Assembly (NCBI GenBank): GCA_027491355.1
Contig: JAIXWI010000015.1
Coordinates: forward strand, 34,588-98,587
From: Bacteroidota bacterium
GTDB lineage: Bacteria; Bacteroidota; Bacteroidia; UKL13-3
DNA length: 64,000 nt
Reading direction: 5' to 3'
This document shows positions 1,437 through 52,793 of this stretch, one piece after another (within the stretch, counting starts at the first letter, position 1; each line of letters opens with the position of its first letter). A model generated the notes under the pieces. It was given only the letters and a program-made list of their open reading frames with translations. It ran no database searches and was not told the origin of the DNA. The position numbers and the translations under genes are program-made.

Positions 1437-1463
1437 AATAAACATTTGATTGACTACCCATAT

Positions 1464-1506
1464 GTCTCATTTTGGGATAATTTTATCCCAATTTGAGACT
1501 TTTTTG
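1464..1506 (+). terminator. rho-independent terminator after TPR gene
   Basis: gtctcattttgggataa-ttt-tatcccaatttgagac, a 17-bp stem with 2 mismatches, followed by TTTTTTG. Confidence 0.45.
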
Positions 1507-1618
1507 TGTACAATCCATAGCCTAGTGATTGCTATAAGTGCCTTATAAATAAACAGATAGTTTTATATAAATAAATTGGTATCATTTTCTCTAAAGATGA
1601 TTATTAAATCTTTTCAAA

Positions 1619-2008
1619 ATGAATATGATTCGCCTTTTTATATTTTTAGGAATTGCATCGATTTTAATGGTGGTTGCTTGCAAAAGAACCAGCATCGAAA
1701 AAAATGGAGAAATACAGCCCCAACAAAGCTTCGGTGAATTAAAAACCGCAGGTCAATTTAATTGGAATACCAACTCCGAGTTAACCTTGCTGTTTTTAGG
1801 CAAAAACAACGACCCAAGAATTGCAGCACTCAAATTAATAGACAATAACGGAAGAGTTTATTTCCAAAGACTCCAGCGAGCAAAAGAAAACTTCCAAACA
1901 AAAATTCTGATCCCTTCTCACGTACAAAATTTAAGGTGGAGTTTTGCGGGTCAATTTCAAAATTTTAATCCAAAAACAGGTAGAATTGTTGTAAGTTTGC
2001 AACCTTAA
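1619..2008 (+). CDS. small lipoprotein, uncharacterised family (paralog A of 9194..9583)
   Basis: 129 aa. Signal peptide with lipobox (ILMVVAC). Shares length and ordered motifs (FNW-T, K-ID-G-F, IL/VP-H) with the ORF at 9194..9583. It sits 21 nt upstream of the LruC gene on the same strand. Confidence 0.5.
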   Translation: MNMIRLFIFLGIASILMVVACKRTSIEKNGEIQPQQSFGELKTAGQFNWNTNSELTLLFLGKNNDPRIAALKLIDNNGRVYFQRLQRAKENFQTKILIPSHVQNLRWSFAGQFQNFNPKTGRIVVSLQP

Positions 2009-2029
2009 TCCCTGATAATCTGAAAGAAA

Positions 2030-3409
2030 ATGAAAAATCAAAGGATCATACAGATTTTTAGAAGTTTTACAGCCCTATTGTTAGTATTTATTGCTGGCAG
2101 GGCTGCTTCACAACCTATATTTACAGACAATGTTACAGACTCGGTGTCAATTACCTACCCAACGGTAGGAGCAAGCAATCCTAGTTTTGTGTATACCAAT
2201 TCTACAAGCATAACAATCAAATGGACTCCTGGAAACGGATCCGGAAGAATTGTATTGGCTTCAACTGATTCTACCATAAACGCCTGGCCCGCTGATAAAG
2301 CCTCTTATACTGCAAATGCAACATATGGCTCAGGTAGTTCTATAGGTAATGCTAAAGTGTTGTATACAGGAAATGGGGATTCTGTTAGCATTTCCAATTT
2401 AAACTCAAACGTGAAATATTATTTTTGGATTATTGAATACAATACCATTGGTTCATTCAACTATTTCGATACACAATATTTTCTAAGAACCTCAACATAC
2501 ACTACATTGCCTGATGCTGATGGTGACAATGTGCCAGATATAGACGATGTTTTTCCCTCAGATCCTTTGAGGGCATTTGTAACAACATATCCACCTTCAG
2601 GTTTTGGAACATTGCTTTTTGAAGATTTATGGCCAGGTATAGGAGATTATGATTTCAATGATCTAGTTCTTGATTACAATTACAGTATCGTTTCAAACGG
2701 CGACAACAATGTTGTTGAAGCAGATTATACTTTTGTTACCAGAGCAATAGGAGGAGATTTACACAATGCTTTCGCATTCCAATTAGATGGTGTAAATCCT
2801 GATAAAATTACCAATGTAACAGGTGCCAATACTGCTGGTGTTACATGGACAACATTCAATCCTAATGGTACTGAATTTGACCAACCCAATCATGCCAATA
2901 TTATCGTTTTTAAAGATGCTTACGATTTGCTGCCAACCTCTGGCGGTTATTGGTTTGTTAATGTAGACCCCAACGCGCCAGATGTAGGAACTGATACGAC
3001 AAAAATACATCTAACTTTTATTGACAATGGAACAGTGCCTTCAGGTGGTACCGTTTCAACAACAATTATGGACGCTGCAGCTTTTAATCCATACATTATT
3101 GTCAACCAACAAAGAGGTAAAGAAATTCACCTTGCTAACAAAATTCCTTCAGACAAAGCAAACTTAGGATTCTTTGGTACCGTAAACGACAATTCTGTTC
3201 CAGGAATAGGCAGGTATTACAAATCACACAACAACCTGCCTTGGGCTCTGGACATCAATACATCTATACCTTACACCAAAGAGAAAGTTGATTTTTTACA
3301 AGCGTATTTGAACTTTTCAATTTGGGCTCAAAGTAATGGCTTAAGCAATCCAGACTGGTATATTGATATGCCGGGTAATAGAAATTCTTCTAAACTAATT
3401 ATTCGCTAA
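2030..3409 (+). CDS. LruC-domain-containing secreted protein
   Basis: 459 aa with N-terminal signal/TM. It has a DADGDNVPDIDDVFPSDP thrombospondin-type-3-like Ca-binding motif followed by FEDLWPGIGDYDFNDLVLDY. I recognise this as the LruC-domain signature of Bacteroidota/Leptospira proteins. Assignment is by motif memory only. Confidence 0.55.
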   Translation: MKNQRIIQIFRSFTALLLVFIAGRAASQPIFTDNVTDSVSITYPTVGASNPSFVYTNSTSITIKWTPGNGSGRIVLASTDSTINAWPADKASYTANATYGSGSSIGNAKVLYTGNGDSVSISNLNSNVKYYFWIIEYNTIGSFNYFDTQYFLRTSTYTTLPDADGDNVPDIDDVFPSDPLRAFVTTYPPSGFGTLLFEDLWPGIGDYDFNDLVLDYNYSIVSNGDNNVVEADYTFVTRAIGGDLHNAFAFQLDGVNPDKITNVTGANTAGVTWTTFNPNGTEFDQPNHANIIVFKDAYDLLPTSGGYWFVNVDPNAPDVGTDTTKIHLTFIDNGTVPSGGTVSTTIMDAAAFNPYIIVNQQRGKEIHLANKIPSDKANLGFFGTVNDNSVPGIGRYYKSHNNLPWALDINTSIPYTKEKVDFLQAYLNFSIWAQSNGLSNPDWYIDMPGNRNSSKLIIR

Positions 3410-3447
3410 CAAGCTTGTATTGAATTGGTTCATTTAAAAGCATTATT

Positions 3448-6400
3448 ATGAAAAAAACACATATACAAAACATGTATTTGTACAAAAAAAGTATAGCACT
3501 GCTAATGATCTTGTTATTCTCAGGAATACAATTTGCATTAAAGGCTCAAACTGCTATTACTCCAAAACATACAGGTACCCTGTCAACATTTTCTTCCATA
3601 TGGACAAGTAGTGGTGTCAATCAAGGAGTAACTGGGAGCAATGATTACCTTGTTTTGAATACAAACAATGCAAGTTTACAAACACCAAATTTAGATTTCA
3701 CAGGCAAAAGAGCCATCGTCTATTTACAATTAAAAGCAGAAACAGGAATAACAAGTCCAGCTATATTATCGATTGAAATTTCAACAAATGGTGGCGCAAG
3801 CTGGGATAACTTAGATGAAGTTTTTGCTGCAGATGAAACATTTTCAACTATTGTAGTCAATGCCAGTGCCTATACAGGTTCTCAAAATATCATCCGTGTC
3901 ATAACCTATACCAATACTGTCAACAATGCTATTGGCCTAGACGATATAACAGTAATAGGGTATGATGAACCATCAACTCAGGCGAGTTCGCTTCAATTTT
4001 CTTGTTTGAACAATAAATCTGTTAGAGTTAGTTGGACCAAAGGTAGCGGGTCAAGAACTGCTGTATTTATGTTAAGAAGTTCTTCTGCAGGTGTTCCTAA
4101 TATTGAAGATGGATTGACTTACAATGTATCTAGTCCTAAAGGAATCAATACAACCAGAGGTAGTCAGTTAGGAGCAAGTGGTTACTACTGCGTTTACAAT
4201 GATACTGGTAGTACTGTTTTAGTTGGCAATTTAAACGCCAATTCCAAATATTGGTTTAGAGTTTATAGTTATTCTTGTGACAGTATTGTATCAGAAATTA
4301 CAATCAATTACAATTCTACAACAGCAGCGTCAAACCCTTCTAGTTACACAACAGCAGCTACTGCGACAAGCTTTCCACTGCCAACTTTAACTGACTTGAA
4401 TGCCTCAAATATTACAACAACTGATGCGATTATTTCTAGTAAGCTAACCGCAAGCGATGAGTGTGATCCTGCAATGTCAAAAGGTTTTGTATGGTCTGAA
4501 ACAAATGTGAATTCAAATCCTTTAATTGGCGGTACTGGAGTTACGAGAATTGTAATTTCCAATCCCGATACTGGATCATTTGGAACAACATTTACAGGTT
4601 TACCTTCAGGTATTTCAATTTCATACAAATCTTATGGTTTAACGCTGAATTCCAATGCTGGCTACTTCTCAACAGGTACTTTTACAACATTGGCACTTCA
4701 GCCAACAATTGCATCCTTAGGTTTACAATTTTCAGCCATTGACACCAATAGCATTCAATTGACTTGGACAAAAGGTAACGGAGCAAAAAGAATAGTAGTG
4801 GCTAGACCATTTGGATCTACCCGATTTGCACCAAGTAATGCAACAGGATACTCAGTTAATAGCAACGCGTACTCAGATTTACTCAATTCAACTACTGGAA
4901 CAAACAATAAAGTTGTTTTCAATGATACAAGTTCAAGTTTCACGTTAACCGGATTGAACCCTGGTACCATTTATGAGTTTGATGTATATGAGTACAATGG
5001 AGACAATGCCAGCGCAAATTACGCAACAAGCTTTTTGAATGGAAATCAATCAACGCTTGCCAGGCAACCTTTGCCTGCTACAAACATAGTTTTTACAAAT
5101 ACCACTGATTCGAGTACCTTGGTTTCATGGACCAACGGTACTGGTTTGAATAGGATTTTAGTAGTAAGATTGGCGAGTACACCTAAAGCAAATCCGACCA
5201 ACGGAACTGCTTATCCCGTAAACAGTGCTTCATTTTCTGATGTTCCTAATTTTTTAACTGGTGCAGGGAACTCTGGAAACGTAGTTGTATACAATGCAAA
5301 TGGCTCTAGTGTAACAGTTACTGGATTAACCAGTTCAACTGCATATGCTTTTGATATTTATGAATACAATGGTAGCGGTGCAACCATTAATTATTCAGCT
5401 GCATTAACTGGTAACAAAACAACATTAAGCGTTGCACCAACATTAAAAGCAAGTGCAATTGTTTTTGGAACAATCACTACCAACAGCATACAAGTTTCAT
5501 GGACCAATGGAAATGGCAACAGACGTATAGTTGTAGCCAGACTTAGTAGTTCAAACAGAACAGCACCTAGTCATTCTGTTGATTATTTTGTTAACTCAGC
5601 AGCATTCTCTGATTTTTCAAATGATTCAACTGGTATCGGAAATAGGGTAGTATATGATGGGAATGGCCAAACGGTAACAGTAACCGGTTTGAGTACTGGA
5701 ACATCTTATACATTTGATGTATATGAATACAATGGCACCGGTAACAGTATAGCTTATTCAGATGTGTTCAATGCGAGCAGAACAACACTTGCAAATCAAC
5801 CTACTGTTATTGCCAGTAACTTAAACTTTAGTAACATCACACAAAGTAGTATGACTTTGGCCTGGACCAATGGAAATGGAAGTGGAAGAATAGTGGTTGC
5901 AAGAGACATCAACACATCCAGAACATCACCTACAAATGCTACACAATACAATGTAAACAGTGCTTCCTATTCAAACTTAAACAATGATACAACTGGAACA
6001 GGTAATATTGTTGTTTACAACGGAACGGGCTCAACTGTTAATGTAACAGACTTGATACCTGTAAGCAGGTATGCTTTTGACATTTATGAATACAATGGTA
6101 GCGGATTATCAACCAATTATTCAAGTAATTTAAGTGGAAATGAAATGACTTTAGATGCTGAACCAAGCAATCAAGCATCAAACATTCATTTTACGAATAT
6201 TACCAAAACAAGCTTTACAATTAATTGGAACAAAGGTGCTGATGCTGATTTTTCAATGGTAATTGTAAAAGCTGGTGCTCCGGTTGATGCATTTCCTTCA
6301 GATGGAGCTAATTATTTGGCAAGTGCAATTTTCGGCAATGGAAATGAACTTGGTTCAGGCAATTACATAACATACATGTCTTCTGGAAATACAATGAACC

Positions 6401-9144
6401 TCTCTGGTTTAACAGAGGGAGTTACCTACCATGTGGCTGTTATTTCTTACAATGCTTCAAACGGTACTTTACATAACTATCAGTTGGACAGTCCAGCAAC
6501 AGGTTCACAAGCAGCACAAAGGGCTACTTTTTATTCAAAAGGAAGCCTAAATCCAGAAAGTTTGACAAGCTGGACCAGCAATAGAGCTGGTACTGGAACC
6601 AATCCATTAGCATTCAATTCTGCCGATAATGAATTCATTATTCAGAATGGACATACCATGACAACAGCATCTAGTTGGAGTTTTGGATCAAATGGTAGTT
6701 CAATTTTAACAATTGAAAATGGCGGTGTTTTAAAAGCAAACCACCCAATTTTAATAGCAGCATCAGATTCTTTTAAATTAGATAACAATGCTAGATACAT
6801 TCATAACCATACAGGTTCATTTACTAGTGGCATTCTAAATGGTAAAGAATTGTTTGATGCCAATAGTATTTTTGAAGTACAAAATTCTCCAAGTATTGGT
6901 CCAAATCAACCAAGTTCAGGATTTGGTCATTTGGCCATCAATATGAATACAGACCCAGGCTATTCAATTCAAATGGGCGGAGGCACACTCCACATTCGTG
7001 GAAATTTTGAAATTCAAAATTTTCCATCTAACAGAGATTGGCAGTTTACCAACAATGCACCTTTGAATTTAAGTATAGATGGTGATTTAAACATTGCAAA
7101 TGGAGGTTTGGATTTTGCATCACAGTCAGGAAATGCCTTTGTAATTGCATCTATAGGAGGCAACTTCATACAAACAGGCGGAACCATCAAGTCTAGTTCG
7201 TCTACAGCCTTGAATTTAAGCTTAATAGGTTTTAATAATAACATTTCTATAACCGGTGGAACTTATCTTCCAAACAATATAAACATTGGCATTGGCATTA
7301 GTGCCACATATACTTCAATGTCTAATTTGAGTTTAGGTAGCTCTAAAAGTTTAACTGTTGATGGCGTTTTAAAAATGGATACTTATCAAATTATTGCAAA
7401 TGGAAACAATGCTTCCATTATTGTCAATGGTACCATTGAAACTGCAGATACAAATGGATTAACTGATCGAGCAAATACATGTATTTCCAACATAAATAAC
7501 CCAAGTGTTGTCATCAACGCTGGTTCAATTATCAAGTACAATGCCAATAGCAATCAATTGGTATCAGCGCGTGCTGATTATGACAATATAGAAATATCAG
7601 GTTTTGGATACAAATACTTGGATGCTGGATTTAGATTAACTTTTAGTGGCAATTTGTCTACCAATGATGCTTTAGTGTTGAAATCTGATGCTTTAGGTAC
7701 AGCATCAATTGGAGAATTACCAAATACAGCCAGCATAACAGGAAAAATCAGCGTAGAAAGATTCATACCTGCAAGAAGGGCCTATCGTTTTCTATCTAGT
7801 CCGGTAACTACATCTGATTACATTATAAACAATTGGCAAAATGGGGCATTCATTACAGGTAATGGAGGAACTGACAACGGATTTGATGTTGGAAACCTTC
7901 AAGGACTTCAGTTCCCTTCTATGTTTACATTAAATGCGACATCACAAGCATGGGATTCTATTCCAAATACAAATGCAACAAACTTAGTTCAGGGAATGGG
8001 GTATAGGATGTTTGTAAGAGGAGATAGAACCATAGATTTAAACTCAAACAATGCCACCCCAACAACAACTATTTTAACAGCAACCGGAACGCATACACCT
8101 GGCGATAAAACTTTCAACACCAGTTCAATTCCAGCTTTGAGCAATCAATTTAATGGCTATACAATGATTGGAAATCCTTTTCCGTCAGCAATTGATTGGA
8201 ACAATGTAACCAAGTCTAATGTGTCATCAAGTTATTGGACATGGCGAGCGCAGGGTGGAGCAAATAACAGAGGTGCTTATGTGAATTACAATGCAAGTGG
8301 TATGATCAGCTCTGATGGGAATGTGAACAAGAATATTGAGTCAGGAAGCGCGATCATTGTTCAAACTTCTGGAGCAAACCCTTCTTTGACCATTAAAGAG
8401 TCAGACAAGACCGCTGCTATGCAAGGCTCACAAATACTTGGAAAATCAGCTGCAGATCAACTGTTAAGAATAACTGTAAATGAAGATGACAGTATTTTTG
8501 CAGATGGTTTGGTTATTTATACAACACCTGAAGCACAAAATACATTCGAAACTTTTGATACAGAAAAATGGATCAATCCCGGTTTTACAATTTATTCTCT
8601 TACAAGTGATAATAAAAAGGTTTCTATTCAAGGAGTTCCTGCTTTTGTTAACCAAAGAAACATTCAACTTGGAATAGAAAAAACTGAAAATAGAACTTAT
8701 ACCATGCAATTTAGTGGAATGGCTTCGTCTGATTTTAAAGTGGAATTATTGGATAAATTTTTAGGAAAGTCAGTAGATATTAGCAAACAAGATGCCTATA
8801 AGTTTGATGTAACTTCTGATATTCAATCTAAATCAAATGATAGGTTCAACTTGGTTTTCACAACAAATAGTACAGGCTTAAACATTGCCGAAATGACCAA
8901 TCAGTTGTCGCTTTATCCAAATCCTGCAAACAATGAAATATATTTGAGTTTGTTGACATCTAATGCTCAATTGTGCACTGTTGAAATTAGCAATCAAATT
9001 GGCCAAGTTGTTTATGCAGGCATGTTAGATTTTATAGAAAACAAAACACAGCGAATCAACATAGATGACATAGCCGCAGGTATTTATGTGGTAAATATTT
9101 CGAGTAAAACCGGATTTTATCAAAAAATCAAGTTCGTTAAATAA
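3448..9144 (+). CDS. giant T9SS-secreted cell-surface protein (1898 aa): N-terminal beta-sandwich domain, 6 Fn3-like repeats, Gly/Asn-rich beta-helix-like region, type-A T9SS C-terminal sorting domain
   Basis: Signal peptide (LLMILLFSGIQFALKAQ). Repeated ~122-aa units (SIQLTWTKGNG..RIVVAR....YEFDVYEYNG). A central region rich in G/N/S/T with repeated 'GG' turns, consistent with a beta-helix. The C-terminal 80 aa (LSLYPNPANNEIYLSL...GIYVVNISSKTGFYQKIKFVK) match a Por_Secre_tail CTD. Uninterrupted 5.7-kb ORF. Confidence 0.8.
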   Translation: MKKTHIQNMYLYKKSIALLMILLFSGIQFALKAQTAITPKHTGTLSTFSSIWTSSGVNQGVTGSNDYLVLNTNNASLQTPNLDFTGKRAIVYLQLKAETGITSPAILSIEISTNGGASWDNLDEVFAADETFSTIVVNASAYTGSQNIIRVITYTNTVNNAIGLDDITVIGYDEPSTQASSLQFSCLNNKSVRVSWTKGSGSRTAVFMLRSSSAGVPNIEDGLTYNVSSPKGINTTRGSQLGASGYYCVYNDTGSTVLVGNLNANSKYWFRVYSYSCDSIVSEITINYNSTTAASNPSSYTTAATATSFPLPTLTDLNASNITTTDAIISSKLTASDECDPAMSKGFVWSETNVNSNPLIGGTGVTRIVISNPDTGSFGTTFTGLPSGISISYKSYGLTLNSNAGYFSTGTFTTLALQPTIASLGLQFSAIDTNSIQLTWTKGNGAKRIVVARPFGSTRFAPSNATGYSVNSNAYSDLLNSTTGTNNKVVFNDTSSSFTLTGLNPGTIYEFDVYEYNGDNASANYATSFLNGNQSTLARQPLPATNIVFTNTTDSSTLVSWTNGTGLNRILVVRLASTPKANPTNGTAYPVNSASFSDVPNFLTGAGNSGNVVVYNANGSSVTVTGLTSSTAYAFDIYEYNGSGATINYSAALTGNKTTLSVAPTLKASAIVFGTITTNSIQVSWTNGNGNRRIVVARLSSSNRTAPSHSVDYFVNSAAFSDFSNDSTGIGNRVVYDGNGQTVTVTGLSTGTSYTFDVYEYNGTGNSIAYSDVFNASRTTLANQPTVIASNLNFSNITQSSMTLAWTNGNGSGRIVVARDINTSRTSPTNATQYNVNSASYSNLNNDTTGTGNIVVYNGTGSTVNVTDLIPVSRYAFDIYEYNGSGLSTNYSSNLSGNEMTLDAEPSNQASNIHFTNITKTSFTINWNKGADADFSMVIVKAGAPVDAFPSDGANYLASAIFGNGNELGSGNYITYMSSGNTMNLSGLTEGVTYHVAVISYNASNGTLHNYQLDSPATGSQAAQRATFYSKGSLNPESLTSWTSNRAGTGTNPLAFNSADNEFIIQNGHTMTTASSWSFGSNGSSILTIENGGVLKANHPILIAASDSFKLDNNARYIHNHTGSFTSGILNGKELFDANSIFEVQNSPSIGPNQPSSGFGHLAINMNTDPGYSIQMGGGTLHIRGNFEIQNFPSNRDWQFTNNAPLNLSIDGDLNIANGGLDFASQSGNAFVIASIGGNFIQTGGTIKSSSSTALNLSLIGFNNNISITGGTYLPNNINIGIGISATYTSMSNLSLGSSKSLTVDGVLKMDTYQIIANGNNASIIVNGTIETADTNGLTDRANTCISNINNPSVVINAGSIIKYNANSNQLVSARADYDNIEISGFGYKYLDAGFRLTFSGNLSTNDALVLKSDALGTASIGELPNTASITGKISVERFIPARRAYRFLSSPVTTSDYIINNWQNGAFITGNGGTDNGFDVGNLQGLQFPSMFTLNATSQAWDSIPNTNATNLVQGMGYRMFVRGDRTIDLNSNNATPTTTILTATGTHTPGDKTFNTSSIPALSNQFNGYTMIGNPFPSAIDWNNVTKSNVSSSYWTWRAQGGANNRGAYVNYNASGMISSDGNVNKNIESGSAIIVQTSGANPSLTIKESDKTAAMQGSQILGKSAADQLLRITVNEDDSIFADGLVIYTTPEAQNTFETFDTEKWINPGFTIYSLTSDNKKVSIQGVPAFVNQRNIQLGIEKTENRTYTMQFSGMASSDFKVELLDKFLGKSVDISKQDAYKFDVTSDIQSKSNDRFNLVFTTNSTGLNIAEMTNQLSLYPNPANNEIYLSLLTSNAQLCTVEISNQIGQVVYAGMLDFIENKTQRINIDDIAAGIYVVNISSKTGFYQKIKFVK
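4699..6159 (+). repeat. 4 in-frame tandem repeats of 366 bp (122 aa Fn3-like unit) inside the giant gene; diverged copies at ~3967-4329 and 6160-~6520
   Basis: Unit boundaries at 4699, 5065, 5431, 5797 and 6160 are exact 366-nt steps (the last is 363). They share DNA strings such as tttga(t/c)(g/a)t(a/t)tatga(g/a)tacaatgg and caa(c/t)ggaaatgg. Protein units start QPTIAS / QPLPAT / VAPTLKAS / QPTVIAS. Confidence 0.8.
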
Positions 9145-9161
9145 AGATCTTATCTTTGACA

Positions 9162-9199
9162 CCATAAAAAAAAGACCGATAACGGTCTTTTTTTTATGG
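9162..9199. terminator. bidirectional rho-independent terminator between convergent genes
   Basis: Perfect 38-nt palindrome ccataaaaaaaagaccg-ataa-cggtcttttttttatgg. The stem is flanked by an A8 run and a T8 run. It lies between the stop of 3448..9144 (+) and the stop of 9194..9583 (-), and overlaps the latter stop codon. Confidence 0.6.
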
Positions 9200-9583
9200 T
9201 GTAATATTTATCAACTTAGAATTGGGCGCAAGGGACTTAGTAACAATTTGGTTTCCTACTTGAACTACCAGCCTTGTTTCATGAATGGGAACCAGCACAT
9301 CTACATCGAAATGCTTTGATAAATCATGATTTTTTGAGAATAGGATATTGCCTTTGACATCTTTAATTGCAACAATCCCTATGCTATTTGCCTGTAAATT
9401 AGGCGTGTATTTAAATTGTATTTTTTGGTAGGTAGACCAATTAAAATCACTGGATACCTGCATTTTGTTAAATTCTGTGGCCCGTTGATTGCGCTGAACA
9501 ATGTCTAGCCTGTGTTTGTTACAAGATGCAACAAGCAATGCAATAGTAATTGTTGACAATGGTATCTTTTTGAAAATGGGCAT
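9194..9583 (-). CDS. small lipoprotein, uncharacterised family (paralog B of 1619..2008)
   Basis: 129 aa with lipobox (ALLVASC). Same length and motif order as 1619..2008, roughly 25% identity by eye. Convergent with the giant gene. Confidence 0.5.
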   Translation of the reverse strand: MPIFKKIPLSTITIALLVASCNKHRLDIVQRNQRATEFNKMQVSSDFNWSTYQKIQFKYTPNLQANSIGIVAIKDVKGNILFSKNHDLSKHFDVDVLVPIHETRLVVQVGNQIVTKSLAPNSKLINITP

Positions 9584-9642: not shown

Positions 9643-9670
9643 AGTAAAAAAAATCCCGGAGTACCGGGAT
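9643..9670 (-). terminator. rho-independent terminator of ferredoxin gene (minus strand)
   Basis: atcccgg-agta-ccgggat stem on the plus strand, preceded by A8. On the minus strand the stem is therefore followed by U8. The stem abuts the ferredoxin stop at 9670-9672. Confidence 0.45.
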
Positions 9671-10014
9671 TAAAGATGCATTCTGTTTTTCTTTTCCAAC
9701 AAGACCTCGTTGGTTTCAACATTGTCAGGATCCGGCACACAACAATCTACCGGGCATACAGCAGCACATTGGGGTTCTTCGTGAAATCCAACACACTCTG
9801 TACATTTAGAAGTTACAATGAAATAAGTATCATCGCTCTTTGGAGAAAATCTTTGGCTTACAGAAATGGCTTCACCATCAATATCAATGGTACCACTTAA
9901 GTTATTTCCATCCGCCCATGCCCACTCTGCACCAGCTTCATAAATTGCATTGTTTGGACATTCAGGCTCACATGCACCACAATTGATGCACTCATCAGTT
10001 ATCATTATTGCCAT
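9670..10014 (-). CDS. 4Fe-4S dicluster ferredoxin
   Basis: 114 aa with [12 protein letters not shown] and [24 protein letters not shown] cysteine motifs. Confidence 0.8.
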
Positions 10015-13818: not shown

Positions 13819-13819
13819 G

Positions 13820-13903
13820 TGCCGTGAAGGAGACTCGAACTCCTATACCCTTGCGAGTACCACCCCCTCAAGATGGCGTGTCTACCAATTTCACCACCAC
13901 GGC
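13820..13903 (-). tRNA. tRNA-Leu (anticodon GAG)
   Basis: The reverse complement folds as a cloverleaf: GCCGTGGTGGTGAAATTGGTAGACACGCCATCTTGAGGGGGTGGTACTCGCAAGGGTATAGGAGTTCGAGTCTCCTTCACGGCA. It has a 7-bp acceptor stem, 3-bp D stem, anticodon loop TTGAGGG (anticodon GAG), a long variable arm, a GGAGTTCGAGTCTCC T-arm and discriminator A. No CCA is encoded. Confidence 0.85.
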
Positions 13904-22597: not shown

Positions 22598-24493
22598 TTA
22601 GGGCATTATTTTGAATTCCGTTCTTCTGTTTTTTTGTCTACCATCATTTGTTTTATTGTCAGCAATGGGTTGTTGGTCTGCGTATCCTTTGTAAGAAATT
22701 CTCTGAGCTACTACTTGCTTACTTAATAAAAAATCGTAAACAGCTTTTGCACGATTGGTAGATAAAATTTTGTTTTTAACAGGATCACCTGTGTTGTCTG
22801 TATGACCTCCAATTTCTATTTTAATTTGAGGATTCATTGTTAAAAACTGAATCAACTTTTCTAGTTCAATCTCCGATTCTTTTTTTATTACAAACGCATC
22901 AGTATCAAAAAATATATTATTCAATACAACTTTTGCGCCAGATGCGATTGGCTGTAATGCGACATCCATATTCAGTGGCTCAGTTGCAGATTGATTTGCT
23001 AGGCCAAAGTTTTCAGAATAAAACAAATATCCTGGTGCTGATACATTGAGTGCATAATTTTTGTTACCAAGCAAATTCAATAGAAATTTACCCGTTAACT
23101 TATTTGAATATGACTCTACTATTGTTTTACCTGAACTCAATTCTATGAGTTCTAATTTAGCTCCAATTTTTTTAGAGCTAACAGCATCAAATGTGGTACC
23201 GCTGATGTAACCGGTTTTGATAGGTCTATTTTTTTCAGGTAGTTCAAACCTATACAAATCTAATCCTCCATAGCTATCTGAGCCCTCTCTTGACATATAA
23301 GCATCAACACCATTTGAAGCAATTACGATACAAGTTTCATCCAATTCAGTGTTGATTGGGTAGCCTAAATTTTGGGCAGTTGACCACCTACCATTACTTT
23401 TTTTTGCAACAAATAAATCTACTCTTCCCATACCAGGATGTCCATCACTGTTGAAATAGAGGGTTTCGTCATCTTTGGCAATAAATGGCGATTGTTCATC
23501 ACCTGGGGTGTTTATTTCAGGACCTAGATTAACAGGAACAGACCATTTTCCATTTTTATAGGTAGTACTCCAAATATCACTTTTACCAAAACCACCAGGT
23601 CTGCTACTACTGAAGTAAACAGTTTTTCCGTCAAAACTTACAGATGGTTGACTTTCCCATGAACTTGAATTAACCGGATATCCTAAGTTGGTTGGATTGG
23701 TCCATGAATCGCCGTCTAGTCGAGACAAATAGATATCACAACTTCCAAAACCACCCTGCTTATTGCATGCTGTATAAAAAATATATTGACCATCTGAACT
23801 CAAAGAAACTGTTCCTTCGTTTCTGTCTGTATTAATAGGCTCTCCTATGTTTTGAGCAGGAAGCCAATTGCTATTGTGTTTTTTACTGATAAAAAAGTCT
23901 TCGTTGTTTCCATCAGTCAATCTGGTAAATATTAAGGTATTGTCATCAGCAGTTATGCCTGGAAAGTATTCATTTTCAGATGTGTTTATTTGAGCTCCTA
24001 AGTTAACCGGGTTAAATTGAACAGGATTAACTATTGCTGTTTTTGCAAAAAGTGCAGATGCTTTTAATTTATTAACCTCTTCCTTTTTTCTATAAAAATC
24101 TGATAATTTTAAATACGTATCAGCATTTCTAATTACAGCATCATAATTTTTTTGTTGAAATGAAATGATTGCTAAATAATAATAACTCAGTGGGAAGTTG
24201 GGGTTAATCTGCACTACTTCGTCATAGATGATTGAAGCATTTTTTGAATCACCTGCAGTTCTAATAATTTCAGCAAGTAACATCTTTGCATCAATAAATT
24301 CAGGGTCATATTGGATAGCCTTTTCAATGTTGCGCTTGGCAATAACTTCCTCCATTGCTTGGTAAGCCTTTAAAGCTTCTCCAAAGTAAAATTCAGCTTT
24401 TTTATTTTTGGTACTTGAAAAAGGAAGTTCTTGCCCCTTGGCTTGAACAAAAAATAAAAAGAGACAACTAAATGCAATTACATTTTTTTTCAT
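22598..24493 (-). CDS. OmpA-family protein with TPR and PD40 (WD40-like beta-propeller) repeats
   Basis: 631 aa with a signal peptide. C-terminal OmpA_C motif GHTDNTGDPVKNKILSTNRAKAV, and repeated 'SVSFDGKTVYFSS' PD40-like units. Confidence 0.75.
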   Translation of the reverse strand: MKKNVIAFSCLFLFFVQAKGQELPFSSTKNKKAEFYFGEALKAYQAMEEVIAKRNIEKAIQYDPEFIDAKMLLAEIIRTAGDSKNASIIYDEVVQINPNFPLSYYYLAIISFQQKNYDAVIRNADTYLKLSDFYRKKEEVNKLKASALFAKTAIVNPVQFNPVNLGAQINTSENEYFPGITADDNTLIFTRLTDGNNEDFFISKKHNSNWLPAQNIGEPINTDRNEGTVSLSSDGQYIFYTACNKQGGFGSCDIYLSRLDGDSWTNPTNLGYPVNSSSWESQPSVSFDGKTVYFSSSRPGGFGKSDIWSTTYKNGKWSVPVNLGPEINTPGDEQSPFIAKDDETLYFNSDGHPGMGRVDLFVAKKSNGRWSTAQNLGYPINTELDETCIVIASNGVDAYMSREGSDSYGGLDLYRFELPEKNRPIKTGYISGTTFDAVSSKKIGAKLELIELSSGKTIVESYSNKLTGKFLLNLLGNKNYALNVSAPGYLFYSENFGLANQSATEPLNMDVALQPIASGAKVVLNNIFFDTDAFVIKKESEIELEKLIQFLTMNPQIKIEIGGHTDNTGDPVKNKILSTNRAKAVYDFLLSKQVVAQRISYKGYADQQPIADNKTNDGRQKNRRTEFKIMP

Positions 24494-28241: not shown

Positions 28242-29198
28242 TTGAATTTATTTAGGTTCATTAAGTCGGTTTTTTTTATCAGTACCGGAATCTTTCTGAT
28301 TTGGATGACAATCCAAAAAATAGCCTTTGATGATTTAAAAATTGCCTTACATCAAAGTTTAAATTGGCGGTTAATTCCAATTCTTTTAACTTCCGTTATG
28401 GTTGTTATTTTGAGGGCAAAACGGTGGCAATTACTTTTAAAAACACAAGAAGAAGCTGTTAGTCCATTCCCATTGTTTCATGCTTTGAATATCGGTTACC
28501 TTGTAAATTTTGCAATTCCTAGATTGGGTGAAATTTCAAGGGCTTTCCTTTTAAAAAATAACCAGCTCATTCCTTTTAATAAATCAATAGCAAGTATCAT
28601 TTTTGAAAGGCTTTCTGATTTAATAGTATTGGGCTTCATTTTAATTTCTGCACTGGTTTTAGAGTATTTTTTTAATGAGGGTGTTGTAAGTCATTTAATT
28701 TACTCAATTCAACTGAATCCTTTCATGCTTCTGATTTTCAGCTGTTTTGTTGCCATTATAATTGGTTTAATGATACAGTATTGGCAAAAAATTAAAGCAA
28801 GAATTGGAATTTGGGCACAAGAGTTCATACAGTATTTTTCGATGTTAATCAGACTCAAAAACAGAAAAAAGTTTATTTTATTGACAACAGGAATTTGGGT
28901 CGGTTTTTATTTAATGACAATGCTTTGGATTTTTGTTTTTCCAGTTAGCACCCAGCTGTCGTTTTTTGCTTGTTTTGAAGTGATGTTGGTTGGTGTGTTA
29001 GCTAGAACATTGCCCATTCAAGCAGGATCAGCAGGTGCTTATCATTTTGCAGTAACGAGTGCTTTTGTTTATTTTGGACTACCTCAAAATCAAGCTTTAA
29101 ATATGGCTTTGATGATTCATGGATTTCAATCAGTTTTAACGATAATACTGGGTGTATTCTCTTATATTTGGATACTCTATCAACAGAAAAATGCATAA
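28242..29198 (+). CDS. lysylphosphatidylglycerol-synthase-TM-like / flippase-like (UPF0104) membrane protein
   Basis: 318 aa with ~8 TM helices. The N-terminus MNLFRFIKSVFFISTGIFLIWM...RAKRWQLLL is typical of this family. Confidence 0.55.
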   Translation: MNLFRFIKSVFFISTGIFLIWMTIQKIAFDDLKIALHQSLNWRLIPILLTSVMVVILRAKRWQLLLKTQEEAVSPFPLFHALNIGYLVNFAIPRLGEISRAFLLKNNQLIPFNKSIASIIFERLSDLIVLGFILISALVLEYFFNEGVVSHLIYSIQLNPFMLLIFSCFVAIIIGLMIQYWQKIKARIGIWAQEFIQYFSMLIRLKNRKKFILLTTGIWVGFYLMTMLWIFVFPVSTQLSFFACFEVMLVGVLARTLPIQAGSAGAYHFAVTSAFVYFGLPQNQALNMALMIHGFQSVLTIILGVFSYIWILYQQKNA

Positions 29199-30318
29199 AT
29201 TCCTTGTTTGCCTTCTCTTATTTGTATTTTATAACAACTCAGCTCAAGTGCCCAAATTAGGAAATGATAGCACGTTCGAATTTGCCACTTGGAATGTTTA
29301 TTGGCTTGGAGACAATACCCCTGGAAATGGCCCTGCAGATGAAACTTTACAATACAACAATGTAAAGCAGTTCATTCAACAAAGTGATTTAGATTTAATA
29401 GCAATTCAAGAGTTGAGCAACCTCAATACTTATTACCAATTGAATAAAGATTTATCAAAATACGCGTCCATGCTTTCGGACATTGATCAAGTTCAAAAAA
29501 TGGGGCTATTCTGGAAAAAATCTCATTTTAATTTAATTCAGGCCTATTCATATACTATTTTAAACGACCAATCCTATAATTTTGGTCGAGCACCTATGCA
29601 GGTTTGCTTACAGCTCAACAACGATAATAAAGATACCATCTTTTTTATCGTTCTACACATGAAAGCATTTGGAGATCAGGATTCATACAACAGACGGATG
29701 AATGCTTCCATTGGATTGAAAGCCTACATAGAAACTTCACTTCAAAATAAAAAATATGTAATTTTAGGCGATTGGAACGATGATTTGAATTACTCTACCT
29801 ATCAAAAAATGGTATCGCCGTACCAAAATTTACTAAATGCAGGCTATCATTTTCCAACAAAAGAACTCACTGATCAAGGAAAAAGAAGCTATGCTTATTC
29901 AAAAGTTATGTTTGACCACATACTTCACTGCCAATTAATTCAAGACAGTTTTTATATTCCAAACAGCTCAGCTGTATTTGATATTGCACCTAATTACATC
30001 ATTAATTTTTCCAGATCTACTTCTGACCATTATCCTGTTTATGCACAGTATAATTTTAAATTAGCAACTGAAAAAGGCACAGGTTATGATGATCATTTCC
30101 AAATCAACCAATTTGATATTTATCCAAATCCATCAAACAGTATGATTTGGATCTCAAATACAACTGCACCCACACCATATGCTATTTTCAACTCACTTGG
30201 TGAATTGGTTTTGAGTGGGATTGGCTGTTTTGTTGACATTGAGAAAATTCCCTCTGGAATCTATCTCATTGAGAGAAAAGGGTATAGAGTTGCCCGATTT
30301 TGCAAATATTTGAATTAA
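29191..30318 (+). CDS. endonuclease/exonuclease/phosphatase (EEP)-family secreted protein with T9SS type-A C-terminal domain
   Basis: Start chosen at MHKFLVCLLLF (the track ORF begins at 29152). The sequence has an EEP pattern (WNVYWLGD..., IAIQEL, LGDWNDD, SDHYPV). The C-terminus FDIYPNPSNSMIWIS...GIYLIE is a Por_Secre_tail-like sorting domain. Confidence 0.6.
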   Translation: MHKFLVCLLLFVFYNNSAQVPKLGNDSTFEFATWNVYWLGDNTPGNGPADETLQYNNVKQFIQQSDLDLIAIQELSNLNTYYQLNKDLSKYASMLSDIDQVQKMGLFWKKSHFNLIQAYSYTILNDQSYNFGRAPMQVCLQLNNDNKDTIFFIVLHMKAFGDQDSYNRRMNASIGLKAYIETSLQNKKYVILGDWNDDLNYSTYQKMVSPYQNLLNAGYHFPTKELTDQGKRSYAYSKVMFDHILHCQLIQDSFYIPNSSAVFDIAPNYIINFSRSTSDHYPVYAQYNFKLATEKGTGYDDHFQINQFDIYPNPSNSMIWISNTTAPTPYAIFNSLGELVLSGIGCFVDIEKIPSGIYLIERKGYRVARFCKYLN

Positions 30319-50120: not shown

Positions 50121-52793
50121 ATGGAAGAAATAAACGAAGAAAACAAAGAAAGTAGACAAGAATACCATGTTATAGCAGTCAATGGACTGTATGAAAATTG
50201 GTTTTTAGATTACGCATCCTACGTAATTTTAGAAAGGGCTGTTCCTGCAATTGATGATGGTTTAAAACCTGTTCAACGTAGAATTTTACATGCCATGCGA
50301 GACATGGATGATGGAAGATTCAATAAAGTGGCCAATGTGATTGGGCAAACCATGCAATACCACCCACATGGTGATGCTGCTATTGGTGATGCTATGGTAA
50401 ATTTGGGTCAAAAAGATTTATTAATTGAAACCCAAGGAAATTGGGGTGATGTAAGAACTGGTGATGCAGCTGCTGCACCAAGGTATATTGAAGCCAGACT
50501 CTCGAAATTTGCATTGGAGGTAGCATTCAATAAACAAACAACCATTTGGCAAAATTCTTATGATGGCAGAAAAAAAGAGCCTGTAGCATTGCCAATGAAA
50601 TTCCCATTGTTATTAGCTCAAGGTGTTGAGGGCATAGCTGTAGGTTTAGCAACTAAAGTGCTTCCTCATAATTTCATTGAGTTACTTCAAGCGAGTATTG
50701 ACTACTTAAAAGGAAAAAAATTTGAGTTATACCCTGATTTTGCAACTGCTGGTTTAATCGATGTCTCCAACTACAACCAAGGCAAAAAGGGCGGGAAAGT
50801 TCGTGTCAGAGCTAGAATTGAAGAGTCTGATAAAAAAACATTGCTCATTAAGGATGTACCTTACGGGGTAACCACTAACCAATTGATAGATTCTATTATC
50901 AAAGCCAATGATTCAGGTAAAATTAAAATCAAAAAGGTTATTGACAATACAGCTAAAGATGTTGAAGTTGAAATACAGTTAGCTCCAGGGGTTTCCCCAG
51001 ACAAGACAATTGATGCTTTGTATGCATTTACAGATTGTGAGGTAAGTATTTCCCCAAATGCTTGTGTAATTGTAGACAACAAACCTGTTTTCATAGGTGT
51101 AGAAGATTTGTTAAAGTTATCTACAGAACGTACCAAGGAATTACTGAAACAAGAGTTGGAAATCAAAATGAATGAATTAGAGGCCTCATGGCATGCCAGT
51201 TCATTAGAAAAAATATTCATAGAAAAACGCATTTACCGTGATATAGAAGAATGTGAAACATTCGAGGATGTGATTGATACCATTTGGAGAGGCATGAATA
51301 AGTTTCGCAAATTGTTCAGAAGAGATTTAACAGAGGAAGATATTTTAAAATTGACCGAAATAAAAATCAAGCGCATTTCAAAATACGACACATTTAAAGC
51401 AGATGAATACATTAAAGGACTTGAAAATCAACTAGAACAAGTTAAGAACGATTTAGAAAACTTAAAGCAATATGCCATCAAGTATTTCGAAAACCTACTC
51501 AAGAAATATAGTAAAGGAAAAGAGCGCAGAACTGAAATCAAAACATTTGACAACATTGATTCAAAAACCGTGGCCATTGCCAATCAAAAACTATATGTAA
51601 ACAGGGCGGAAGGATTTGTAGGCTATGGCTTAAAAAAGGATGAGTTTGTTGTAGATTGTTCAGACATTGATGACATCATTGTTTTCAGACGAGATGGAAA
51701 AATGTTGGTCAGCAAGGTGCAAGAAAAGGCATTCATGGGCAAAGACATCATTCATGTAGATGTATTTAGGAAAAATGATGAGCGCAGAACATATAACCTC
51801 ATTTATTTGGATGGTAAAACTAAAACCAGTTATGCCAAACGTTTTCCAGTTACAGGAATAACCCGTGACAAAGAATACGATTTAACCCAAGGTACTGCAA
51901 ATTCCAGAATACTTTATTTCTCTGCAAATCCATCAGGTGAAGCAGAAATTGTAGCTGTTACGTTAAGCCCTTTGAGCCACGCTAGAAAGCTTTCATTTGA
52001 TTTTGATTTTAGCACATTGGCTATTAAAGGCAGGGGAGTTCAAGGAAATATCTTGAGTAAATATTTAGTCAAAACAATTAAGCTCAAACAAAAAGGAGTG
52101 TCTACACTAGGTGGAATAGACATTTGGTTTGATTGGGCTATTGGTAGGTTAAATGTGAATGAACATGGAAGCTATTTAGGAAATTTCTCAGGTGAAGATT
52201 TGGTTCTCTCTGTATACAAGGATGGCAATTATGAGTTAACAAATTTTGATTTGTCAAACCATTTTGACTACGAGCAATTGCTGTTGATTGTTAAATTCAG
52301 GGCAGATAGAGCCCTTAGTTGTATCTATTTCGACGGGAAAGCAAAGCAAAACTACCTCAAACGCTTTGTAATTGAAACACTCACACTCAATAAAAAGTTC
52401 TTATTTATCAGTGAAGAGAAAGGTTCTCATGTTGTTTTTGTGAGTGATCACAAACAACCAAAAATCAAACTACTTATCGGTAAAGGTAAAACTGCACAAG
52501 AAGAAGAATTGGTTTTATCAGATTTGATTGAAGTAAAAGGATGGAAAGCAATTGGCAATAAATTTACCACCAAAGATTTGGTAAAAATTGAATTATTGAG
52601 TGAAGACGAAGTAGATGAAGTTTTGCCATCCACAGATGAAAATGAGCCTAATTTAACTGAAGACTTGTTCAAGGAGGAGGAAGAAAAGATTAAAAAGCTC
52701 CTTGCAGATGATGAAGACGTGTTCAACAAAAAAAGCATTGCAACTAAGAAACCAAAACCAGAAAACCCTTCAGATCAACCTAAACTATTCTAA
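50121..52793 (+). CDS. parC: DNA topoisomerase IV subunit A (gyrase A-like)
   Basis: 890 aa with YASYVILERAVPAIDDGLKPVQRRIL and the active-site Tyr region. Confidence 0.8.
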   Translation: MEEINEENKESRQEYHVIAVNGLYENWFLDYASYVILERAVPAIDDGLKPVQRRILHAMRDMDDGRFNKVANVIGQTMQYHPHGDAAIGDAMVNLGQKDLLIETQGNWGDVRTGDAAAAPRYIEARLSKFALEVAFNKQTTIWQNSYDGRKKEPVALPMKFPLLLAQGVEGIAVGLATKVLPHNFIELLQASIDYLKGKKFELYPDFATAGLIDVSNYNQGKKGGKVRVRARIEESDKKTLLIKDVPYGVTTNQLIDSIIKANDSGKIKIKKVIDNTAKDVEVEIQLAPGVSPDKTIDALYAFTDCEVSISPNACVIVDNKPVFIGVEDLLKLSTERTKELLKQELEIKMNELEASWHASSLEKIFIEKRIYRDIEECETFEDVIDTIWRGMNKFRKLFRRDLTEEDILKLTEIKIKRISKYDTFKADEYIKGLENQLEQVKNDLENLKQYAIKYFENLLKKYSKGKERRTEIKTFDNIDSKTVAIANQKLYVNRAEGFVGYGLKKDEFVVDCSDIDDIIVFRRDGKMLVSKVQEKAFMGKDIIHVDVFRKNDERRTYNLIYLDGKTKTSYAKRFPVTGITRDKEYDLTQGTANSRILYFSANPSGEAEIVAVTLSPLSHARKLSFDFDFSTLAIKGRGVQGNILSKYLVKTIKLKQKGVSTLGGIDIWFDWAIGRLNVNEHGSYLGNFSGEDLVLSVYKDGNYELTNFDLSNHFDYEQLLLIVKFRADRALSCIYFDGKAKQNYLKRFVIETLTLNKKFLFISEEKGSHVVFVSDHKQPKIKLLIGKGKTAQEEELVLSDLIEVKGWKAIGNKFTTKDLVKIELLSEDEVDEVLPSTDENEPNLTEDLFKEEEEKIKKLLADDEDVFNKKSIATKKPKPENPSDQPKLF

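What the first reader, a model, noticed from the sequence alone, without database searches (positions are those of the whole stretch)
1619..9583. Accessory surface module: lipoprotein, LruC-domain protein and 1898-aa T9SS cargo, bracketed by inverted paralogous lipoproteins
This is the only locus in the window that is not housekeeping. Three co-directional, tightly spaced genes (21-nt and 38-nt gaps) encode a small lipoprotein, a secreted LruC-domain protein with a thrombospondin-type-3-like DADGD..D Ca-binding motif, and a giant protein. The giant protein has an N-terminal beta-sandwich, six Fn3-like repeats, a Gly/Asn-rich putative beta-helix and a Por_Secre_tail sorting domain. The module is closed by a diverged paralogue of the first lipoprotein on the opposite strand, sharing a perfect palindromic terminator. 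LruC-domain proteins and their partners have no established function. The constant pairing of a small lipoprotein with an LruC protein and a giant T9SS adhesin is unusual. If it is conserved across genomes, it would suggest a dedicated surface-assembly or adhesion system.
Basis: partly seen in the sequence, partly recalled or inferred. Interest (0 to 1): 0.6.

Follow-up and report, generated by a model that had tools for sequence, protein, structure and literature searches.

The report
Small lipoprotein paired with LruC protein
The four genes are real, and the main result is that the small lipoprotein belongs to an undescribed family that almost always sits next to, or is fused to, LruC-domain proteins across Bacteroidota, whereas the giant secreted protein is only a local neighbour.

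Summary
Observation confirmed. The four ORFs, the 21- and 38-nt gaps, the LruC/DUF4842 and T9SS-tail HMM hits, six Fn3 repeats, the diverged inverted paralogue and the perfect 20-bp terminator are all present.

Interpretation partly supported. The 129-aa lipoprotein ('lp') has no Pfam or NCBIfam model, yet has at least 330 cluster representatives. AlphaFold2 predicts a 7-strand beta-sandwich.

In 80 Bacteroidota loci fetched with the LruC protein, I could assess 78 LruC genes:
- 42 have an lp gene directly upstream on the same strand, with a median gap of about 21 nt.
- 30 carry an lp-like domain fused at their N-terminus.
- 3 have lp downstream.
- 3 have none.

Six of six assessable distant lp homologues lie next to a DUF4842 gene.

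The lipid anchor follows lp. Separate LruC proteins have ordinary signal peptides, and fusions carry the lipobox. The LruC domain is always C-terminal, behind variable passengers such as ice-binding, cadherin-like, LamG and Fn3 domains.

My best reading is that lp and LruC form a split or fused membrane-anchoring pair. This is inferred from gene fusion, not shown.

The giant T9SS cargo is not a conserved partner. It occurs only in close relatives, and T9SS neighbours are not enriched elsewhere. The role of the second lipoprotein is unexplained.

The parts
1619..2008 (+). lp1: a 129-aa lipoprotein (signal peptide, lipobox Cys21) of an undescribed family. The mature part is a predicted 7-strand beta-sandwich preceded by the conserved F-x-W-x-T motif (F47, W49).
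2030..3409 (+). LruC-domain protein, 459 aa. It has an ordinary signal peptide with no lipobox, one Fn3 module, an acidic Ca-binding-like motif, and a C-terminal LruC/DUF4842 domain.
2153..2464 (+). Fn3 module of the LruC protein (aa 42-145). It is the same subtype as the six repeats of the giant protein.
   Evidence: BLASTP shows up to 41% identity to the giant's repeat 5. The repeat profile gives E 5.6e-37.
2507..2569 (+). Acidic D-x-D-x-D-G..D motif (aa 160-180), thrombospondin-type-3-like, immediately before the LruC domain.
   Evidence: D162, D164, D166, D173 and D178 are invariant in alignment A2. PF13448 DUF4114 matches aa 155-215 at its cut-off.
2606..3361 (+). LruC / DUF4842 domain (aa 193-444), at the extreme C-terminus.
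   Evidence: TIGR04456 E 1.8e-65 and PF16130 E 4.4e-50.
3448..9144 (+). Giant 1898-aa T9SS cargo. In order it has a signal peptide, an unassigned N-terminal region, six Fn3 repeats, an Asn/Gly/Ser/Ile-rich unassigned region (aa 1009-1820) and a type A C-terminal sorting domain.
   Evidence: Orthologues are 77% identical and align without a single gap over all 1898 aa. The unassigned regions have no family hit.
3967..4287 (+). Fn3 repeat 1 of the giant protein (aa 174-280).
4678..6471 (+). Fn3 repeats 2-6 of the giant protein (aa 411-1008), head to tail.
   Evidence: Pfam fn3 and Pur_ac_phosph_N hits.
8911..9141 (+). T9SS type A C-terminal sorting domain (aa 1822-1898).
   Evidence: PF18962 E 1.2e-10 and TIGR04183 E 2.9e-10, both above their cut-offs.
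9159..9202 (.). Bidirectional intrinsic terminator shared by the giant gene and lp2. It has a perfect 20-bp stem and a 4-nt loop, with A/T runs inside both arms. It overlaps the last 9 nt of lp2.
9194..9583 (-). lp2: a 129-aa lipoprotein and distant paralogue of lp1. It is an orphan, with no LruC gene downstream of it, and converges on the giant gene.
   Evidence: It is conserved at the same position in L004 and L005. It is only about 20% identical to lp1 and 58% to its own orthologues.

Best explanation
The conserved core of this locus is a two-part envelope module. One part is a small lipoprotein of an undescribed family (lp). The other is a secreted protein whose C-terminus is an acidic Ca-binding-like motif followed by the LruC/DUF4842 domain.

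I propose that lp supplies the lipid anchor and docks the LruC-domain protein. This would tether whatever variable passenger precedes the LruC domain to the outer membrane. Here the passenger is a single Fn3 module.

In other Bacteroidota the same two parts are one polypeptide: lipobox, lp domain, passenger, LruC domain. The window therefore shows the split form of a fission/fusion pair.

Shown:
- The near-obligate adjacency of the two genes.
- The existence of fusions.
- The lipobox always travels with lp.
- The LruC domain is always C-terminal behind variable passengers.

Inferred:
- A physical lp-LruC complex.
- Its anchoring role.
- Which face of the membrane it occupies.

The 1898-aa T9SS cargo is probably co-transcribed, since the gaps are 21 and 38 nt and the one strong terminator comes after it. 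It also shares the Fn3 subtype with the LruC protein. It is nevertheless a lineage-specific addition, not part of the conserved module. lp2 is a second, orphan copy of the anchor protein with an unknown partner.
For: Forward census:
- 90 LruC ORFs were found in 80 species-representative Bacteroidota loci.
- 42 have a 121-171-aa lp gene immediately upstream on the same strand. Gaps mostly run from -17 to 51 nt, with a median of about 21; the window's gap is 21.
- 30 have an lp-like domain at aa ~31-120 of the LruC protein itself. This was scored with a profile that excludes the signal peptide.
- 3 have lp only downstream, 3 have none, and 12 are cut by contig ends.

Specificity: all 47 stand-alone lp hits among 994 ORFs lie within three genes of an LruC ORF, and 44 are directly adjacent.

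Reverse census: six of six assessable distant lp representatives lie next to a DUF4842/LruC gene.

The anchor follows lp:
- 37 of 42 split LruC proteins scored as having no lipobox. By eye the other five also end in the ..AQ signal-peptidase-I pattern.
- The fusions begin with a lipoprotein signal (..SCKK..).
- Minimal fusions (lipobox-lp-LruC) with no passenger exist: P0218, P0236 and P0251.

Constant C-terminal module: DUF4842 ends within about 15 residues of the C-terminus in 20 of 20 proteins. It follows Ice_binding, pAdhesive_15, Fn3, CHB_HEX_C_1, beta-helix, Big_9/cadherin/CshA or Laminin_G_3 passengers.

Against: - No direct evidence of an lp-LruC contact. I could not run a complex prediction.
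- The census covers only the 80 closest of 562 LruC relatives, all Bacteroidota. Leptospira, Vibrio and Shewanella LruC proteins were not examined.
- The solved relative 3oqq is not matched by the lp profile.
- Three LruC genes have no lp (L049, L068, L072).
- lp1 and lp2 lack the K-(D/E)2 surface-export signal, and only 11 of 133 family members have it.
- Split LruC proteins have no T9SS tail, so there is no known route to the cell surface. Yet several passengers, such as ice-binding and cadherin-like domains, look extracellular.
- Leptospira LruC is reported on the periplasmic side of the outer membrane (PMC9901810).
- In fusions the passenger lies between lp and LruC. That would also fit lp being a simple stalk domain rather than a docking partner.
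Confidence: 0.6

Rival explanations
1. The lipoprotein, the LruC protein and the giant T9SS adhesin form one dedicated three-component surface-assembly or adhesion system that recurs across genomes.
For: - The three genes are co-directional, with 21- and 38-nt gaps and a single strong terminator after the third.
- The block of 129/459/1898/129 aa is kept with identical lengths in relatives.
- The LruC protein and the giant share one Fn3 subtype.
Against: - All loci with the giant also share the flanking genes (WYL, TPR, ferredoxin, arginase). The conservation is therefore synteny within one narrow clade.
- Outside that clade no neighbour family recurs in more than 5 of 80 loci.
- T9SS-tail proteins are not enriched next to LruC genes: 4 of 97 adjacent ORFs against 27 of 994 overall.
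Confidence: 0.1
2. lp is not a stable anchor. It is instead a dedicated helper for the LruC domain, such as a pilot or chaperone for folding or export, or an inhibitor that masks the domain until it is in place.
For: - The adjacency and short gaps fit.
- Split LruC proteins lack any known route across the outer membrane.
Against: - One-to-one fusions of lp and LruC in a single chain are common: 30 of 78 assessable genes, plus the minimal fusions P0218, P0236 and P0251. That fits a permanent partnership better than a transient helper.
Confidence: 0.2
3. The pair sits on the periplasmic face of the outer membrane and serves an envelope-structural or Ca-dependent role. It would not be a display device for extracellular passengers.
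For: - lp1 (C-K-R-T-S) and lp2 (C-N-K-H-R) have no K-(D/E)2 export signal (PMC5080379).
- The LruC protein has only a signal peptide.
Against: - Passengers fused to the LruC domain include ice-binding, ice-binding-like adhesive, cadherin-like/CshA and chitobiase-type domains (PMC9957290). From general knowledge of these families they act outside the cell.
- The family does have a partial signal-like bias: K at +3 in 97 of 133 members and D/E at +4 in 64 of 133.
Confidence: 0.3
4. The neighbourhood is coincidental. lp is an unrelated small lipoprotein that happens to lie beside the LruC gene.
For: None beyond the absence of experimental data.
Against: - 75 of 78 assessable LruC genes have lp adjacent or fused.
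- There are no lp hits elsewhere among 994 ORFs.
- The reverse census gives 6 of 6.
Confidence: 0.02

Closest known systems
LruC-domain / DUF4842 proteins (TIGR04456, PF16130): Leptospira LruC and LIC13086, and Bacteroides ovatus BACOVA_00967 (PDB 3oqq)
   Different: - Leptospira LruC and 3oqq are themselves lipoproteins. Here the LruC protein has no lipobox, and a separate lipoprotein is encoded 21 nt upstream.
- I found no published function for the Bacteroidota members. The only functional data are host-protein binding by Leptospira LIC13086 (PMC8280789).
- The partner lipoprotein is not mentioned in any of the papers found.
T9SS type A cargo proteins (Por_Secre_tail, TIGR04183)
   Same: The giant protein has a signal peptide and a C-terminal sorting domain above both curated cut-offs. 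Its long array of Fn3 modules is typical of Bacteroidota adhesin-like cargo.
   Different: About 1100 residues have no family assignment: aa 30-175, 281-410 and 1009-1820. The lp and LruC proteins have no T9SS tail, so they are not cargo of that system.
TssJ, the small outer-membrane lipoprotein of type VI secretion, which anchors the complex by binding the C-terminal domain of TssM
Cohesin-dockerin pairs and other constant C-terminal anchoring modules (PEP-CTERM, T9SS tail, LPXTG)
   Same: A constant C-terminal module, preceded by a Ca-binding-like acidic loop, sits on many different passengers. It comes with a dedicated small beta-sandwich partner. In sea-ice ice-binding proteins DUF4842 occupies the position that PEP-CTERM occupies in others (PMC9957290).
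   Different: There are no cohesin or dockerin HMM hits. The LruC domain is far larger than a dockerin, at about 250-300 aa. No binding has been demonstrated.

Membership tests
LruC domain / DUF4842 (TIGR04456, PF16130) | HMM score above the curated cut-off | tested here: met
   TIGR04456 scores 221.5 bits (cut-off 36) and PF16130 scores 171.2 bits (cut-off 22), over aa 193-444.
LruC domain / DUF4842 (TIGR04456, PF16130) | Fold shared with the only solved member, PDB 3oqq | tested here: met
LruC domain / DUF4842 (TIGR04456, PF16130) | The protein is itself a lipoprotein, as are Leptospira LruC and 3oqq | tested here: not met
   The N-terminus MKNQRIIQIFRSFTALLLVFIAGRAASQP contains no Cys. The lipobox is on the separate upstream lp1. 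Lipidation is not part of the domain definition, so domain membership stands.
T9SS type A cargo | Por_Secre_tail domain at the extreme C-terminus, above the cut-off | tested here: met
   PF18962 scores 42 bits (cut-off 27) and TIGR04183 scores 40 bits (cut-off 23), over aa 1822-1898 of 1898.
T9SS type A cargo | N-terminal Sec signal peptide | tested here: met
   By inspection only, the sequence reads ..KKSIALLMILLFSGIQFALKAQ. No signal-peptide predictor was available.
T9SS type A cargo | T9SS machinery (SprA/PorV/PorU and others) present in the genome | not testable with these tools
   Only 64 kb of the genome is available. Two other tail-bearing ORFs in the window make a T9SS likely.
Fibronectin type III | fn3 HMM above the cut-off, and repeated units | tested here: met
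   PF00041 scores 104.6 bits on the giant, which has six units. The LruC protein's single unit is below the Pfam cut-off (16.4 bits) but is 31-41% identical to the giant's units.
Thrombospondin type 3 repeat | TSP_3 HMM hit | tested here: not met
   Pfam returned no TSP_3 family at E<=0.1 for the LruC protein. Only the D-x-D-x-D-G..D pattern is shared. DUF4114 matches exactly at its cut-off.
Bacterial lipoprotein (lp1, lp2) | Signal peptide ending in a lipobox Cys | tested here: met
   LMVVAC (Cys21) in lp1 and LLVASC (Cys20) in lp2. The Cys is invariant in 129 aligned members, and 122 of 142 small representatives show the pattern. Lipidation itself was not tested.
Bacteroidota surface-exposed lipoprotein | Lipoprotein export signal K-(D/E)2 or Q-A-(D/E)2 just after the Cys (PMC5080379) | tested here: not met
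   lp1 reads C-K-R-T-S-I-E and lp2 reads C-N-K-H-R-L-D. Only 11 of 133 family members have K-(D/E)2.
TssJ (T6SS lipoprotein) | Sequence or strong fold similarity, and T6SS gene context | tested here: not met
Any described protein family, for lp | A hit in Pfam-A (2025) or NCBIfam 20.0 | tested here: not met
   129 members were scanned. There was no consistent family, only scattered weak signal-peptide-type matches in at most 6 members. There was no PDB sequence match.

The most novel reading that the evidence does not exclude
lp and the LruC domain form a previously unrecognised, T9SS-independent display system in Bacteroidota. In this reading a constant C-terminal LruC module docks in a Ca-dependent way onto a dedicated small lipoprotein, so that interchangeable passengers (ice-binding, adhesin, lectin-like and Fn3 domains) are held on the cell envelope. 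This would work in the manner of a cohesin-dockerin pair, and it would give the first function to the DUF4842/LruC domain.
Probability: 0.3. Interest if true: 0.75.

Novelty: new variant of a known kind. Interest (0 to 1): 0.55.

Why it matters
LruC/DUF4842 is a widespread domain with a solved structure but no known function. It occurs in Bacteroidota, Leptospira antigens and polar ice-binding proteins.

This work shows that in Bacteroidota the domain comes almost invariably with a small lipoprotein of an unannotated family, either as the next gene or fused in one chain. That gives the domain a concrete, testable partner and a plausible role in membrane tethering of variable passengers.

It also defines a protein family that annotation pipelines currently label 'hypothetical'. 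For this window, it separates the conserved core (lp plus LruC) from a lineage-specific giant T9SS protein.

Tried and rejected
- **Word-indexed homologue search of lp1 and lp2**. It found only 7 and 3 close relatives, which wrongly suggested a tiny family. The exhaustive profile search corrected this.
- **Metagenome scan with the broad lp alignment**. I replaced it with seven exact look-ups of distant lp representatives.
- **Searching for an lp-like domain inside the first 120 LruC homologues**. That set held mostly split forms, so it gave only insignificant scores. Fusions appeared only in the genome loci and were confirmed with a profile lacking the signal peptide.
- **Long proteins that matched a short part of the lp profile several times** (P0156, P0177, P0192). 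They did not match the mature-domain profile, so I dismissed them as spurious.
- **Fold search of lp1**. It gave only generic beta-sandwich matches, so no function can be read from it.
- **Fold search of the LruC model**. It gave only 3oqq plus Fn3 hits.
- **The AFDB Foldseek library** was unavailable.
- **Family scans of the four unassigned regions of the giant** found nothing.
- **The organism** could not be named. The nearest named record is the MAG 'Bacteroidetes bacterium RE-27jun17-100'.
- **The Verma 2012 LruC paper** is not held in the library.
Full report
**1. The observation**

- lp1: 1619-2008 (+), 129 aa.
- LruC protein: 2030-3409 (+), 459 aa.
- Giant protein: 3448-9144 (+), 1898 aa.
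- lp2: 9194-9583 (-), 129 aa.

The gaps between the three co-directional genes are 21 and 38 nt.

The 459-aa protein hits TIGR04456 LruC_dom (E 1.8e-65) and PF16130 DUF4842 (E 4.4e-50). The giant hits fn3 (E 3.3e-30) and the T9SS sorting domain at aa 1822-1898 (PF18962 E 1.2e-10; TIGR04183 E 2.9e-10).

A profile seeded on one repeat finds six Fn3 units in the giant, at aa 174-280 and at five consecutive units from 411 to 1008. It finds a seventh unit of the same subtype at aa 42-145 of the LruC protein, up to 41% identical to the giant's repeat 5.

The acidic D-x-D-x-D-G..D motif is invariant among 26 homologues, but it is not a Pfam TSP_3 hit.

The two small proteins both have a signal peptide ending in Cys. 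They are real but old paralogues, with 20% identity (E 1e-8) and a 40-bit score from the lp1-family HMM on lp2.

The shared terminator is a perfect 20-bp hairpin at 9159-9202.

Two points were not verified:
- No model matched the giant's proposed N-terminal beta-sandwich or beta-helix.
- The locus is not the only non-housekeeping one. Two other T9SS-tail ORFs are in the window.

**2. Close relatives**

lp1 and lp2 have very few close homologues. Every contig carrying them shows the same block of 129/459/1898/129 aa inside the same flanking genes. Those flanks are WYL and TPR on one side, and ferredoxin, a LuxC-like gene, arginase and Orn/Arg decarboxylase on the other.

Identity to the window falls in this order:

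| Protein | Identity to window |
|---|---|
| LruC | 85-87% |
| Giant | 77%, with no gap over all 1898 residues |
| lp1 | 69-71% |
| lp2 | 58% |

So the block is a stable chromosomal feature of one narrow, uncultured freshwater-type Bacteroidota clade. By itself this says nothing about a general system.

**3. The small lipoprotein is a large, undescribed family**

An exhaustive profile search of 1.84 billion cluster representatives found 330 relatives at E<=1e-3 and 48 at E<=1e-10. Nearly all are 120-150 aa.
- 122 of 142 small representatives show a lipobox.
- The Cys and F47 are invariant, and W49 and P99 nearly so, in 129 aligned members.
- None of the 129 has a meaningful Pfam or NCBIfam hit, and no solved structure matches by sequence.

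AlphaFold2 with this alignment gives a confident model (pLDDT 90.4) of a 7-strand beta-sandwich at aa 52-126, preceded by the conserved F-x-W-x-T segment.

**4. The census**

I scanned one genome per species (GTDB) with an alignment of 26 LruC homologues. This found 562 relatives, and the 80 best loci were fetched. They are spread over Bacteroidales, Chitinophagaceae, Cytophagales-type genera, Flavobacteriales and many unclassified MAGs. I called ORFs and searched them with lp and LruC profiles.

Using an lp profile that excludes the signal peptide, the 90 LruC ORFs divide as follows:

| Class | Count |
|---|---|
| lp gene immediately upstream, same strand (median gap about 21 nt) | 42 |
| lp-like domain at aa ~31-120 of the LruC protein itself | 30 |
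| lp only downstream (tandem arrays) | 3 |
| No lp | 3 |
| Cut by a contig end | 12 |

Thus 75 of 78 assessable genes are linked to lp.

The lp profile is specific. All 47 stand-alone hits among 994 ORFs lie within three genes of an LruC ORF, and 44 are directly adjacent.

In the reverse direction, I looked up seven distant lp representatives by exact sequence. Six lie next to a DUF4842/LruC gene. The seventh contig ends before the neighbour's C-terminus.

By contrast, no other neighbour family recurs in more than 5 of 80 loci. T9SS-tail proteins are no commoner beside LruC genes (4 of 97) than in the loci overall (27 of 994).

The conserved unit is therefore lp plus LruC, not the trio.

**5. 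Anatomy that suggests a mechanism**

Where lp is a separate gene, the LruC protein begins with an ordinary signal peptide ending ..AQ and has no lipobox. This scored 37 of 42, and the other five look the same by eye. Where lp is fused, the protein begins with a lipoprotein signal (..SCKK..) followed by the lp motif. The lipid anchor therefore always travels with lp.

Minimal fusions with nothing between lp and the LruC domain exist: P0218, P0236 and P0251.

In 20 of 20 proteins scanned, DUF4842 ends about 15 residues from the C-terminus. It is preceded by the acidic DUF4114-like motif. The N-terminal or middle part varies:
- Ice_binding
- pAdhesive_15
- Fn3
- fifteen CHB_HEX_C_1 units
- beta-helix
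- Big_9/cadherin/CshA repeats
- Laminin_G_3

A published survey of sea-ice ice-binding proteins likewise found DUF4842 as a C-terminal appendix, in the position that PEP-CTERM occupies in other proteins (PMC9957290).

A constant C-terminal module on interchangeable passengers, together with a dedicated lipidated partner that is sometimes fused to it, is the signature of an anchoring pair. I therefore propose that lp tethers LruC-domain proteins to the outer membrane. The fusion evidence makes a functional partnership very likely. The physical contact, its Ca dependence and its location are inferred.

**6. What remains open**

*Topology.* This is unresolved.
- lp1 and lp2 lack the K-(D/E)2 export signal of surface lipoproteins (PMC5080379). 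Only 11 of 133 members have it, although K at +3 (97 of 133) and D/E at +4 (64 of 133) are common.
- Yet several passengers look extracellular, and split LruC proteins have no T9SS tail.

*lp2.* This is unexplained.
- It has no LruC gene after it and converges on the giant gene.
- It is conserved in that position in relatives.
- It is no closer to lp1 (about 20%) than to the lp beside a second LruC paralogue in the sister MAG (31%).
- It is therefore not a recent inverted copy of lp1.

**7. The giant protein**

It is a bona fide T9SS type A cargo with six Fn3 modules and about 1100 residues without any family assignment. It is probably co-transcribed with lp1 and LruC, and it shares their Fn3 subtype. 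A local functional link in this clade is therefore possible. It is not part of the conserved module.

**8. Verdict**

The pairing of lipoprotein and LruC protein is real, general in the Bacteroidota sampled, and stronger than proposed because it also occurs as a fusion. The giant adhesin is a lineage-specific neighbour, and 'surface assembly system' is not shown.

The locus consists of known kinds of genes. The new elements are the unannotated lp family and its near-obligate link to the LruC domain. I rate it a new variant of a known kind, with interest 0.55.

Noticed in passing
window 29152-30318 (+) and 52790-53527 (-): Two further ORFs carry a T9SS C-terminal sorting domain. One is a 388-aa Exo_endo_phos nuclease/phosphatase-family protein, and the other is a 245-aa protein with no other domain. 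The studied locus is therefore not the only secreted-protein locus in the window.
   Followed up: partly
L014:9359-10927 (+), with the lp gene directly upstream: An ice-binding (PF11999) protein ends in a DUF4842 domain and is preceded by a 130-aa lp gene. This ties the lp-LruC pair to the DUF3494-DUF4842 ice-binding proteins reported from Arctic sea ice (PMC9957290).
   Followed up: partly
L017, L027, L039, L048, L058 (tandem pairs); L009 and L086 (two lp genes before one LruC gene): The lp-LruC unit is often duplicated in tandem, and lp alone is sometimes duplicated. Such arrays would be natural material for testing partner specificity.
   Followed up: no
L007:4472-6814 (+) and the following 128-aa ORF: The closest named MAG (RE-27jun17-100) has a second LruC paralogue of 780 aa, 54% identical. 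Its lp gene lies downstream instead of upstream.
   Followed up: partly
L001, L004, L005 versus window 1619-9583: All four proteins keep exactly the same lengths (129/459/1898/129 aa) in relatives. The giant protein aligns without a single gap at 77% identity. This is unusually strict for a repeat-rich surface protein.
   Followed up: partly
window 1448-1515: A long imperfect inverted repeat (33-nt arms, 73% complementary) followed by a T-run lies between the upstream TPR gene and lp1. It is probably the TPR gene's terminator, which would make lp1 the first gene of its transcript.
   Followed up: partly
window 9652-9671 (-): A separate terminator-like hairpin (8 bp, 5 G-C pairs, then a T-run) follows the ferredoxin gene just upstream of lp2. 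This suggests that lp2 is transcribed on its own.
   Followed up: no
L016, L027, L030, L035, L043 and other ~490-505-aa LruC proteins: Many split LruC proteins share an N-terminal domain that starts with a conserved C-E-S-G-N-R-x-I-E-x-x-N-C-W motif containing two Cys. It has no Pfam assignment. In the window's protein an Fn3 module takes its place.
   Followed up: no
window 55700-57673 (+), 22598-24493 (-), 13819-13903 (-): Other features seen while surveying the window: a 7TMR-DISM histidine kinase, a TPR-PD40-OmpA protein, and a tRNA-Leu (GAG).
   Followed up: no
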